Shown: one piece after another, positions 54,824 through 56,710 of the stretch
How the letters are laid out: every line of letters starts with the position of its first letter
How positions within the stretch are numbered: the stretch's first letter is position 1
Source of the DNA: an uncultured bacterium
GTDB taxonomy: Bacteria > Bacillota_I > Bacilli_A > Acholeplasmatales > Anaeroplasmataceae
DNA length: 64,000 bases
Reading direction: 5' to 3'
Assembly: GCA_949292525.1 (NCBI GenBank)
Contig: CASEZJ010000003.1
Span: 7,594-71,593, forward strand
The notes under the pieces: generated by a model
What the model saw: the letters and a program-made list of their open reading frames with translations, nothing else
Database searches by the model: none
What the model was told of the DNA's origin: nothing
Translations under genes and position numbers: made by a program

Positions 54824-56632
54824 ATGGCTAAAAAGAATAAAGAATTAGTTTATGGTAAGTCTGAATTATTAAAGAAAACTATACCATATATCAAAAAGGA
54901 ATGGAAGACATTCTTAATTGCATTTTTGTTAGTGTTTGTAATAGCTTTTTTACAAACGTATACTCCTTTATTAACTAAAAGTATAATAGATGATTATATT
55001 TTAAATGAAACAATAACTAAAGCTGTTAAATATGAAGCGATTAGGAATTTGTTAATAATGTATGGTGTAATGACTTTAATCATGGTTGTTTCGCGTTATT
55101 TTATGCAATATTTTATGTCTTTAACTGGAATGAATATTGAAAGAAGATTACGTAATGATGCGATTAGAAAAATAGATTATTTACCAGTTGATTATTATTC
55201 ATTAGAACCAGATGGTAAAATAGTTTCTAAAATAACAAATGATAGTAATGGTGTTAGAGTCTTCTTTGAGACAATGTTTTCAATTTTTCAAGCTCTGATT
55301 AACATTGTAGTTGTTTATGTTGGTATTATTATTTTAATGCCTATGTTAGGATTAATATTATTAGTCTTAGTTCCAGTTCTTTTAATTTGGGTAACAATTT
55401 ATAGAAGAAGAGTTCATGGTTATTATCAAGATTTAAGAGAGACGGGTTCAAGAATAACTGGTAAATTAAATGAATTAATTACCGGAGCTTTAGTTATTCA
55501 AGATTTTAATCAAGAAGAAGCAATGTTAAATGACTATAAGGCTTTAGTTAATCGTTATAATTATAATGATAAAAAAGCCAATACAGTGGCTGCTTACTTT
55601 GGTTGGGAATTGTTAATGTTAATTAAAAGAATAGCTGAAGTATCTATCTTAGTTTATTTTGGTTTTAGATATTTTGAATTAGGTCCTACCGTTATAACAG
55701 TTGGTTTAATTACGACTTTTACAGATTATTTAACGCGAATGATTAATCCGGTTAATGCTATATTTAATAATTTAAATGAATTAGAAGATAGTATGGTAGG
55801 AGCAAATAGAGTATATCTCTTTATGGATGAAGCAAATGATACTAGAGTTTTAACAGGTGCTGAAGCTCCAACAGAAATTATTGGTAAGGTTGAATTTAAA
55901 GATGTATGGTTTGCCTACGTTAAAGGAAAACCAGTTTTAAAAGGAATTAATCTTAAAGTTGAAGCTGGTAAAAACATTGGAATAGTTGGCCATACAGGTT
56001 CAGGCAAATCAAGTTTAATGAATTTATTATTAGCATATAACGATTATGATAGTGGGCAAATCTTAGTAGATGGTGTAGATATTAAAACATATAATAAGCA
56101 AAGTTATAGACAAAACTTAGGTATAGTTTTACAAACCCCAGCTTTATTTGCCGGAACAATAAAGTCTAATTTAACTATGGAAAGAGATATATATCAAGAT
56201 GATGAAATAGAAAAAGTCTTAATTGAAGTAGGCGGTAAAGATTTATTAGCTAAATCAGAAAAAGGAATTTATTCACCTATTTCTTTTAGAGGTGAGAACT
56301 TATCACTTGGTGAAAAACAATTGATTTCTTTTGCTAGAATATTATTAAGAAATCCTAAAATATTAGTATTAGATGAAGCAACCGCAAACATAGATACAGA
56401 AACGGAAAATAAAATAAAACATGCTATGGACGTAGTGTGTAAAAATAGAACTACATTTATTATTGCTCACCGCTTATCAACCATTCGTGACAGTGACTTA
56501 ATTTTAGTGGTCAATGATGGTTTGATTGTGGAGCGTGGCTCGCATGAGGAATTGTTAGCTCAAGACGGGGCTTATGCGGCTTTATATCGCTCACAATTTA
56601 AGGCTAAAGAGCAAGAGGAAATGCAAAGTTAA
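54824..56632 (+). CDS. ABC exporter (TMD-NBD half transporter), partner subunit with a degenerate signature motif; the 3' end is compositionally foreign
   Basis: It has Walker A [9 protein letters not shown], Walker B [11 protein letters not shown] and H-loop AHRLSTI. The signature is degenerate (LSLGEKQ). The start lies 1 nt after the upstream stop. Confidence 0.85.
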   Translation: [602 protein letters not shown]

Positions 56633-56710
56633 GCCTTTAAAAAAATCTAAATTCACTGCGCTTTAAGAGTAACTTTAGGGTAAAATAGCGCAAATTTTTA
56701 ACCTTAACTT

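What the first reader, a model, noticed from the sequence alone, without database searches (positions are those of the whole stretch)
56400..56640. Sharp composition and codon-usage break inside the last ~55 codons of an ABC exporter gene (mosaic gene or chimeric assembly)
I counted G+C by hand in consecutive 60-nt blocks: 16/60 at 56401-56460, 24/60 at 56461-56520 and 32/60 at 56521-56580. All four Arg codons after ~56470 are CGC/CGT. Upstream in the same gene AGA dominates (e.g. AGA AGA AGA near 55400). The reading frame and the conserved H-loop and C-terminus ([32 protein letters not shown]) run straight through the junction. Everything downstream (xpt onward) keeps the richer composition and uses GC-rich terminator stems. 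So the boundary between two very different genomic backgrounds sits inside a conserved coding motif, with no intergenic scar. That suggests either homologous recombination between two ABC genes during horizontal acquisition, or an assembler joining two organisms through a shared k-mer.
Basis: seen in the sequence. Interest (0 to 1): 0.8.

Follow-up and report, generated by a model that had tools for sequence, protein, structure and literature searches.

The report
Cross-phylum chimeric contig inside ABC gene
The sharp composition break is real, but it is almost certainly an assembly artefact that glues a Mollicutes-like gut bacterium to a Succinivibrionaceae bacterium in register inside a conserved ABC-transporter motif; it is not a natural mosaic gene.

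Summary
G+C steps from 28.6% to 40.1%, with the maximum-likelihood change point at 56464. Codon usage and tetranucleotide composition change at the same place.

Bases 1-56461 belong to an Anaeroplasmataceae/Acholeplasmatales-like Mollicute. Bases 56462-63944 are 99.8-99.99% identical to nine independently assembled Succinivibrionaceae (Gammaproteobacteria) contigs. In those contigs xpt is preceded by a native 671-aa ABC gene. The window has no private substitution in these 7,483 nt.

The closest AT-rich relative differs at 2 of the first 546 residues and carries a native AT-rich tail. The hybrid 602-aa protein is on record on one contig only (74,201 bp), which I take to be the window's own.

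The crossover interval is the 8-nt word ATTGCTCA (56462-56469), in frame. It lies in the most similar 45 nt of two genes that are otherwise only 46% identical.

Sister assemblies from one ENA accession series show other unshared breaks in ABC motifs, one at the same H-loop site. The window has a second blunt 97-nt join at 63944/63945.

Verdict: an interspecies misassembly (about 0.9). Very recent real HGT is not excluded (about 0.06). How the misjoin arose is unresolved, because the shared word is too short for a plain k-mer join.

The parts
1..56461 (.). Segment A: chromosome of an AT-rich (28.6% G+C) Anaeroplasmataceae/Acholeplasmatales-like Mollicute. It includes the L10 leader, rpoB, rpoC, a giant Flg_new-repeat protein and a pair of ABC exporter genes.
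   Evidence: RpoB (24169-27687) has named hits at 77-79% identity, all Anaeroplasmataceae, Anaeroplasma or Acholeplasmatales MAGs. Named ABC hits are the same taxa at 66-68%, apart from one labelled Roseburia sp.. Window 49092-56469 is collinear with L010 at 93-94% nt. Composition.
53083..54822 (+). First ABC half-transporter gene of the pair (579 aa), entirely AT-rich type.
   Evidence: ORF. NCBIfam best hits are Tet(46)A and SmdA-type exporters, below their cut-offs. GC3 is 0.164. The syntenic gene in L010 is at 3926-5665.
54824..56461 (+). 5' 546 codons of the second ABC exporter gene, AT-rich type: transmembrane domain, Walker A, signature motif, Walker B and D-loop.
   Evidence: 96.7% nt identity to L053, with 3 mismatches in the last 370 nt. 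It differs from P0130 at 2 of 546 residues. GC3 is 0.152.
56462..56469 (+). Crossover interval: the 8-nt word ATTGCTCA (codons Ile-Ala-Hi(s) of the H-loop), shared by both parents. It is in frame and in homologous register.
   Evidence: The last AT-type-specific base is 56461 (T, against G in all 9 Succinivibrionaceae contigs). The first Succinivibrionaceae-specific base is 56470 (C, against T in all 9 sequenced AT-rich relatives).
56470..56632 (+). 3' end of the ABC gene (H-loop to stop), identical to the 3' end of the native 671-aa Succinivibrionaceae ABC exporter gene.
   Evidence: 100% identical to L001-L009 here. The tail of P0131 equals the window's tail. GC3 is 0.393.
56633..63944 (.). 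Segment B: Succinivibrionaceae chromosome. It carries xpt (56780-57373), the xanthine permease pbuX (57376-58725), a DUF805 gene (58779-59345, minus strand), a maltodextrin-glucosidase-like gene (59440-61500, minus), a PepD-type dipeptidase (61513-62979, minus) and a 160-aa predicted lipoprotein (63385-63867).
   Evidence: 99.77-99.93% identical over 7,498 nt to nine contigs from two ENA accession series, with the same gene order. One mismatch to L002 and no window-private base. The synteny ABC-xpt-permease-amylase-dipeptidase is kept in Ca. Avisuccinivibrio pullicola at about 70% nt. Family assignments.
63944..63945 (.). Second anomalous join: 97 nt that are present in all nine reference contigs are missing. 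There is no microhomology. The loss frameshifts the C-terminus of a universal-stress-protein gene on the minus strand.
   Evidence: Window 63945-64000 resumes at L002 17263, so L002 17166-17262 is absent. Translation reads ...FIGSAGPKMINFVQC* against the native ...FIGSAGRQGMSAALIGNTCEEIV...DKDD*.

Best explanation
The window comes from a chimeric metagenomic contig or scaffold. DNA of an AT-rich Anaeroplasmataceae-like Mollicute (1 to about 56465) has been joined artefactually to DNA of a Succinivibrionaceae gammaproteobacterium (about 56465 to 64000). Relatives of both occur in samples of the same ENA accession series. Both organisms have an ABCB-type exporter gene at the join. The join falls in the H-loop (IAHRLST), the most similar short stretch of the two otherwise dissimilar genes, so the frame and the motif run through and no scar is visible.

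Shown: the identity of both sides, the exact crossover interval, the record of the hybrid on a single contig, and native versions of both genes in other assemblies.

Inferred: how the join was made. The likeliest routes are a scaffolder or gap-closer merging two contig ends by a short imperfect overlap, or a chimeric library fragment made by template switching between the two templates and then followed by the assembler. A plain exact k-mer overlap is not enough to explain it.
For: (1) Window 56447-63944 matches nine independent contigs (L001-L009) at 99.77-99.93%. In all of them xpt is preceded by an intact native 671-aa ABC gene and, further upstream, by ackA, citrate synthase and rplT. The xpt protein is indexed in 98 blocks of the collection.

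(2) From 56462 to 63944 the window has no private substitution and only 1 mismatch to L002. The segment therefore sits inside the circulating Succinivibrionaceae population.

(3) The right-hand gene order is ancestral to Succinivibrionaceae: it is conserved in Ca. Avisuccinivibrio pullicola, whose ABC protein is 84% identical.

(4) Every other full-length member of the AT-rich protein's 90% cluster (9 proteins, 596 aa) has a native AT-rich tail. P0130 is among them and differs from the window at only 2 of the first 546 residues. Three relatives (L010, L047, L050) continue downstream with called genes of their own, none of them the xpt block.

(5) The hybrid protein (P0126, 100% identical to the window's) is recorded on one contig of 74,201 bp only. 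The junction 48-mer is absent from the GTDB species representatives and from JGI metagenomes. No fragment more than 78% identical to a 120-aa junction-spanning peptide was found.

(6) The closest relatives of both parents come from one ENA accession series, ERZ16268xxx (L002 on the right; L010 and L053 on the left), and relatives of both also occur in ERZ24773xxx.

(7) Sister assemblies of that series carry other unshared structural errors in ABC nucleotide-binding motifs. L056 has a 147-nt deletion. L055 has 272 nt replaced by 95 nt of unrelated sequence just after Walker A. L054 has a 50-nt deletion that starts at the same H-loop position.

(8) The window has a second blunt join 7.5 kb downstream, the missing 97 nt.

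(9) None of the genes annotated in 56.4-64 kb is an integrase, transposase or other mobility gene.

(10) Interspecies misassembly is a recognised error class in metagenome assembly (PMC8682757, PMC10174551).
Against: The exact overlap between the parents at the junction is only 8 nt, and no word longer than 10 nt is shared anywhere in the two genes. A de Bruijn assembler with k of 21 or more cannot make this join from error-free reads, so an extra step has to be assumed and could not be tested.

No reads, coverage or mate-pair data are available. The window's exact AT-rich strain is not seen in any other assembly, so its native 3' end is inferred from relatives that are 94-97% identical. The roughly 10 kb of the source contig outside the window could not be read. 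That the sister assemblies and the window share an assembly pipeline is inferred from accession series and nearest neighbours, not shown.
Confidence: 0.9

Rival explanations
1. Genuine, very recent cross-phylum horizontal transfer. At least 7.5 kb of Succinivibrionaceae chromosome integrated into the Mollicute genome by microhomology-mediated (illegitimate or homology-facilitated illegitimate) recombination at the ABC H-loop, creating an in-frame hybrid exporter gene.
For: The join is seamless, in frame and in homologous register, and it keeps an intact 602-aa ORF. An 8-nt microhomology is in the range I recall for illegitimate recombination (from my own knowledge, not checked here). Donor and recipient lineages share a habitat, since both are found in samples of the same series. 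The 97-nt frameshifting deletion in usp could be read as early decay of useless acquired DNA. The window's exact strain is seen nowhere else, so absence of the junction in other samples does not strictly exclude a strain-specific event.
Against: There is no private substitution in 7,483 nt and no sign of amelioration. The cargo is ordinary chromosomal housekeeping DNA in native order, with no mobility gene annotated. The closest relative, which differs at 2 of 546 residues, has the native tail. The parental genes are 46% identical in DNA, far too diverged for RecA-type recombination. Sister assemblies show unshared breaks at the same and neighbouring ABC motifs, including one at the identical position, which points to a technical cause. 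The hybrid is recorded on a single contig. Only one junction is visible, and the foreign block runs to the end of the window.
Confidence: 0.06
2. A sub-variant of the artefact: a de Bruijn assembler walked from one genome to the other through an exact shared k-mer in the conserved H-loop.
For: The junction lies in a conserved motif and in the most similar 45-nt stretch of the two genes, with 34 of 45 positions matching. If the unseen true parent had CAC CGC TTA TCA ACC ATT, the shared word would reach 24 nt.
Against: All 9 sequenced AT-rich relatives, from lineages 81-97% identical, have CAT at the His codon. With them the shared word is 8 nt. A word of 21 nt or more would need three synonymous T/A-to-C changes in a genome with GC3 of about 0.13-0.15. 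No word longer than 10 nt is shared anywhere in the two genes.
Confidence: 0.04
3. Native compositional heterogeneity: the whole window is one genome, and the richer block is an old island or a locally different region.
For: None beyond the continuity of the ORF.
Against: The right block is 99.8-99.99% identical to Succinivibrionaceae contigs that have Succinivibrionaceae flanks on both sides. Relatives of the left organism lack it.
Confidence: 0

Closest known systems
Interspecies misassembly (chimeric contig; MetaQUAST's 'interspecies translocation') in metagenome assemblies and MAGs
   Same: The two sides belong to different phyla. Each side is found elsewhere with its own native continuation. 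The junction is recorded in one assembly only and lies in a conserved coding motif. Composition, codon usage and tetranucleotides all switch at one point. The error class is described in PMC8682757 and PMC10174551.
   Different: As I understand it, such joins usually run through a repeat or conserved stretch at least as long as the assembler's k, such as rRNA, tRNA or IS elements. Here the exact shared word is only 8 nt, so an overlap-merging scaffolding step or a chimeric template has to be assumed.
PCR or library-preparation chimeras (template switching between homologous templates)
   Same: The join is in register between homologous genes, at the locally most similar stretch (34 of 45 nt; 8-nt exact core), with no indel.
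   Different: From my own knowledge, these are usually described between much more similar templates, such as 16S amplicons. Here overall DNA identity is 46%. Whether such a fragment existed cannot be tested without the reads.
Natural mosaic genes made by homologous recombination (for example mosaic pbp genes or tet(O/W) mosaics; recalled from my own knowledge)
   Same: A single ORF whose 5' and 3' parts have different origins, with an in-frame junction.
   Different: Known mosaics arise between alleles similar enough for homologous recombination and are found repeatedly in independent isolates. Here the parents are 31% identical in protein and 46% in DNA, the junction is seen once, and the foreign part continues for at least 7.4 kb of unrelated donor chromosome.
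Homology-facilitated illegitimate recombination or microhomology-mediated integration of foreign DNA
   Same: A short microhomology (8 nt) at the one visible junction.
   Different: This mechanism needs a second junction or a homologous anchor, which is not visible in the window. The donor DNA shows no divergence, and no independent occurrence is known.

Membership tests
Interspecies chimeric contig (assembly artefact) | The two sides of the breakpoint belong to different organisms. | tested here: met
   Left: RpoB and ABC hits are Anaeroplasmataceae/Acholeplasmatales. Right: 99.8-99.99% identical to contigs whose closest named genome is Ca. Avisuccinivibrio pullicola, Succinivibrionaceae. Composition and tetranucleotides switch.
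Interspecies chimeric contig (assembly artefact) | Each side occurs elsewhere with its own native continuation across the breakpoint. | tested here: met
   A native 671-aa ABC gene lies upstream of xpt in L001-L007, and runs off or starts near the contig end in L008 and L009. A native 596-aa AT-rich gene is present in L010, L011 and L053, with related native genes in L047-L052.
Interspecies chimeric contig (assembly artefact) | The junction is not reproduced in independent assemblies. | tested here: met
   The hybrid protein is on one 74,201-bp contig only. The junction 48-mer is absent from GTDB representatives and JGI metagenomes. The peptide search found no junction-spanning fragment. Caveat: the exact AT-rich strain is also seen only once.
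Interspecies chimeric contig (assembly artefact) | The junction lies in sequence shared by both genomes that is at least as long as the assembler's k. | tested here: not met
   The shared exact word is 8 nt, and the longest shared word anywhere in the two genes is 10 nt. This argues against a pure k-mer join, but not against an artefact made by overlap merging or a chimeric fragment.
Interspecies chimeric contig (assembly artefact) | A coverage step and a lack of concordant spanning reads at the junction. | not testable with these tools
   No reads or depth information are available.
Natural mosaic gene or HGT island | The same junction is found in independent genomes or assemblies. | tested here: not met
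Natural mosaic gene or HGT island | The parental sequences are similar enough for homologous recombination. From my own knowledge this needs an exact stretch of roughly 20-30 nt. | tested here: not met
   8 nt at the junction; 46% DNA identity in the codon alignment.
Natural mosaic gene or HGT island | The foreign block is flanked by recipient DNA on both sides. | not testable with these tools
   The Succinivibrionaceae block runs to the end of the window. The rest of the 74.2-kb contig could not be read.
Natural mosaic gene or HGT island | Mobility genes or attachment-site repeats at the borders. | tested here: not met
   The genes in 56.6-64 kb are xpt, pbuX, DUF805, a glucosidase, a dipeptidase, a lipoprotein and usp, in the donor's native order. 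Attachment-site repeats were not searched for.
Natural mosaic gene or HGT island | Some divergence or amelioration of the acquired DNA relative to the donor population. | tested here: not met
   No window-private substitution in 7,483 nt. GC3 is 0.36, like the donor. The only private change is the 97-nt deletion.
ABCB-type (type I) half-transporter exporter | An N-terminal ABC_membrane domain plus a C-terminal ABC_tran nucleotide-binding domain with Walker A, signature motif, Walker B and H-loop. | tested here: met
   Homologues carry PF00664 and PF00005. The motifs [23 protein letters not shown] and IAHRLST are visible in the translation. NCBIfam best hits are MsbA, Tet(46)B and SmdB-type exporters, all below their equivalog cut-offs, so no specific substrate is assigned.

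The most novel reading that the evidence does not exclude
The contig is correct. An uncultured Anaeroplasmataceae-like gut Mollicute has very recently taken up at least 7.5 kb of chromosome from a co-resident Succinivibrionaceae. Integration used an 8-nt microhomology in the ABC H-loop and produced an in-frame hybrid exporter whose last 56 residues come from another phylum.
Probability: 0.05. Interest if true: 0.6.

Novelty: not a real feature. Interest (0 to 1): 0.12.

Why it matters
The main value is quality control. By its recorded sources, a 74-kb contig held in ENA and NCBI carries at least 7.5 kb of Succinivibrionaceae DNA fused to a Mollicute chromosome. Its 602-aa 'ABC transporter' is a hybrid protein that already sits in protein databases. 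Taken at face value, it would produce false calls of cross-phylum HGT, of purine salvage (xpt, pbuX), maltodextrin and dipeptidase functions in a reduced Mollicute genome, and of a mosaic ABC gene.

The case is also instructive because the join is scarless, in frame and inside a conserved motif. ORF-based checks would therefore miss it; only composition and comparison with other assemblies reveal it. Because the shared word is shorter than any assembler k, the case points to scaffolding, gap-closing or chimeric library fragments as sources of interspecies chimeras.

If the join were real, against the evidence, it would be a rare directly observed cross-phylum gene fusion.

Tried and rejected
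(a) Exact look-ups of the hybrid ABC protein and of its upstream partner found nothing. The hybrid was later found as P0126 inside the 90% cluster of P0001, on one contig. That contig's DNA was not returned by any look-up, so the roughly 10 kb outside the window stayed unread.

(b) The junction 48-mer in GTDB representatives and in JGI metagenomes gave no hits. A degenerate 50-mer for the AT-rich left flank in JGI metagenomes also gave no hit. Both organisms seem to be represented only in the ENA and Logan data.

(c) The search with a 120-aa junction-spanning peptide returned only short unrelated ABC fragments of 78% identity or less. This is weak negative evidence, because the parents themselves were not listed.

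(d) A pure shared-k-mer join was considered and rejected as the sole mechanism.

(e) Homologous recombination between the two ABC genes was rejected because they are 46% identical in DNA.

(f) I looked among truncated cluster members for a reciprocal broken Succinivibrionaceae contig ending at the H-loop. None was found. The truncated members turned out instead to carry internal deletions or a junk insert.

(g) tRNA and Rfam scans gave no tRNA or rRNA that could have served as a classical chimera point. The only Rfam hit was an L10 leader at 17027-17142.
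Full report
OBSERVATION

The break is real and sharp. A one-step likelihood model places the change point at 56464 at three different scales, and over the whole window it gains 203 log-likelihood units over a uniform model. 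G+C is 0.286 for 1-56461 and 0.401 for 56462-64000, while seven 7.5-kb blocks on the left vary only from 0.272 to 0.306. Tetranucleotide profiles correlate at 0.93-0.97 among left blocks, but only at 0.62-0.78 between any left block and the right block.

Inside the ABC gene (54824-56632, 602 aa), GC3 jumps from 0.152 in the first 546 codons to 0.393 in the last 56 (Fisher p = 5e-5). Arg codons change from 19 AGA, 1 AGG, 3 CGT and 1 CGA to 2 CGT and 2 CGC. The frame is unbroken.

WHAT THE TWO SIDES ARE

Right side. The xpt protein (56780-57373) occurs with exactly this sequence on many metagenomic contigs; it is indexed in 98 blocks of the collection, and 21 contigs were read. Nine of these contigs (L001-L009, from the ENA series ERZ16268xxx and ERZ24773xxx) match window 56447-63944 at 99.77-99.93% over 7,498 nt, with the same gene order.

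- In the contigs that extend far enough upstream, xpt is preceded by an intact 671-aa ABC exporter gene, and before that by ackA, a PNPOx gene, a formyltransferase, citrate synthase and rplT.
- The last 56 residues of that 671-aa protein (P0131) are identical to the window's tail.
- The closest named genome is Ca. Avisuccinivibrio pullicola (Succinivibrionaceae). Its ABC protein is 84% identical, and the order ABC-xpt-permease-amylase-dipeptidase is conserved there at about 70% nt.
- NCBIfam confirms xanthine phosphoribosyltransferase, the xanthine permease PbuX and a PepD-type dipeptidase above their cut-offs.

Left side. RpoB (24169-27687) and the ABC protein have named relatives among Anaeroplasmataceae, Anaeroplasma and Acholeplasmatales MAGs, at 77-79% and 66-68% identity respectively; one ABC hit is labelled Roseburia sp.. 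Window 49092-56469 is collinear with L010 (ERZ16268140) at 93-94% nt.

In L010 the second ABC gene is 596 aa with an AT-rich tail...[51 protein letters not shown]. It is followed by genes for two small proteins, an ABC ATPase, ligA, uvrA, hprK and lgt. All nine other full-length members of the 90% cluster have this native tail. The closest, P0130 (L053, ERZ16268177), differs from the window at 2 of the first 546 residues. It is 96.7% identical in DNA up to 56469, with only 3 mismatches in the last 370 nt, and then diverges completely.

THE JUNCTION

The last base that is AT-type and not Succinivibrionaceae-type is 56461 (T against G in all nine contigs). The first base that is Succinivibrionaceae-type and not AT-type is 56470 (C against T in all nine sequenced AT-rich relatives, which come from lineages 81-97% identical). 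The crossover interval is therefore ATTGCTCA, 56462-56469, in the codons Ile-Ala-His of the H-loop.

The two native genes are only 31% identical in protein and 46% in DNA. They share no exact word longer than 10 nt anywhere. The junction lies in the single most similar 45-nt stretch of their codon alignment, where 34 of 45 positions match.

WHY AN ARTEFACT IS THE BEST EXPLANATION

1. From 56462 to 63944 the window has no private substitution relative to the nine Succinivibrionaceae contigs, and only one mismatch to L002. The block cannot be told apart from the free-living donor population.
2. The hybrid protein exists in the 15-billion-protein collection as P0126, 100% identical to the window's, on one contig of 74,201 bp. 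I take this to be the window's own contig. The junction 48-mer is absent from the GTDB representatives and from JGI metagenomes, and no junction-spanning peptide fragment was found.
3. The closest relatives of both parents come from the same ENA accession series.
4. The foreign block is ordinary donor chromosome in native order, with no mobility gene annotated.
5. Other scaffolds of the ERZ16268xxx series carry unshared structural errors in the same kind of place.
   - L056 lacks 147 nt near Walker A, with a 5-nt microhomology.
   - L055 has 272 nt replaced by 95 nt of unrelated 52% G+C sequence directly after the Walker A lysines.
   - L054, a more distant AT-rich relative, lacks 50 nt starting at the very same H-loop position, after ...ACTACATTTAT.
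6. The window contains a second anomalous join. At 63944/63945, 97 nt that are present in all nine references are missing, without microhomology, and the loss frameshifts a usp gene.

Together these results fit a scaffold built from abutted contig ends: an AT-rich contig, a 7.5-kb Succinivibrionaceae contig and a further Succinivibrionaceae contig. Interspecies misassembly is a recognised class of error (PMC8682757, PMC10174551).

WHAT REMAINS UNEXPLAINED

An 8-nt shared word cannot cause a join in a de Bruijn graph with k of 21 or more. For the shared word to reach 21-24 nt, the unseen true parent would need three synonymous changes to C in a genome whose GC3 is about 0.13-0.15, and all nine relatives have T at the first of those sites. 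The artefact therefore needs one of two extra steps:

- an overlap-merging step that tolerates short, imperfect overlaps (the parents match at 18 of 20 nt from 56462), or
- a chimeric library fragment made by template switching.

My recollection is that some assemblers' gap-closing stages accept overlaps of about 10 nt with a few mismatches. This comes from memory and was not verified here. Neither route can be tested without the reads.

THE RIVAL: REAL HGT

A very recent, strain-specific, microhomology-mediated integration cannot be formally excluded. The window's exact strain is seen nowhere else, and the join leaves an intact ORF. Several points count against it:

- the donor DNA shows no divergence;
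- there is no visible second junction;
- the cargo has no mobility genes;
- the nearest relative has the native tail;
- sister assemblies break at the same motif.

I put real HGT at about 0.05-0.06.

COMPARISON WITH KNOWN THINGS

This behaves like an interspecies translocation misassembly. It is unusual only in that the shared sequence is shorter than k and the join is perfectly in frame. It is not a member of the natural mosaic-gene class: the junction is not reproduced, and the parents are too dissimilar for homologous recombination. The gene itself is an ordinary ABCB-type half-transporter, one of a tandem pair, with no specific substrate assignable.

VERDICT

The biological feature is not real. 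Interest is low, except as a contamination flag for the deposited genome and protein, and as a worked example of a scarless in-frame chimera.

Noticed in passing
window 63944-63945: A blunt 97-nt deletion relative to all nine Succinivibrionaceae contigs (L002 17166-17262 is missing), with no microhomology. It frameshifts and truncates the conserved C-terminus of a universal stress protein gene on the minus strand. It is either a second assembly join or a strain-specific pseudogene.
   Followed up: partly
window 31843-50604 (+): A giant 6253-aa ORF in the Mollicute part. Its C-terminal half has at least 17 Listeria-Bacteroides (Flg_new, PF09479) repeats plus a Flg_new_2 domain. A relative (L047) has a 5279-aa homologue next to its ABC gene pair. 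Short internal repeats lie at 48486-48584 and 48699-48797.
   Followed up: partly
window 51579-52835 (-): The DUF4143/AAA_14 gene is split into two ORFs (311 aa and 81 aa), whereas L010 has an intact 418-aa gene. This is a pseudogene or a sequence error.
   Followed up: no
L054 1170-1340; L055 9959-10053; L056 2251-2255: Three scaffolds of the ERZ16268xxx series have unshared defects inside ABC nucleotide-binding motifs. L054 has a 50-nt deletion starting at the same H-loop site as the window's junction. L055 has 272 nt replaced by 95 nt of unrelated 52% G+C sequence after Walker A. L056 has a 147-nt deletion with a 5-nt microhomology. This suggests a systematic assembly problem at conserved ABC motifs in that data set.
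   Followed up: partly
L053 2395-2790: In the closest AT-rich relative, the native ABC gene is followed by a terminator-like hairpin and a DUF772 (IS-type transposase) fragment, and the contig ends soon after. An IS copy downstream of the ABC gene could explain why contigs of this lineage break near here.
   Followed up: no
window 17027-17142 (+); whole window: A ribosomal protein L10 leader (RF00557, 62 bits) lies upstream of rplJ. No tRNA gene was found anywhere in the 64 kb. The 20-24 kb stretch is unusually AT-rich (20-23% G+C). It holds a 653-aa ORF with no Pfam match and an ABC_tran-FtsX fusion gene.
   Followed up: no
window 1-56461 versus 56462-64000: GC skew is strongly positive (about +0.1 to +0.3) over most of the Mollicute part, where nearly all genes are on the plus strand. 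It drops to about 0 in the Succinivibrionaceae part. This is an independent compositional marker of the same boundary.
   Followed up: no
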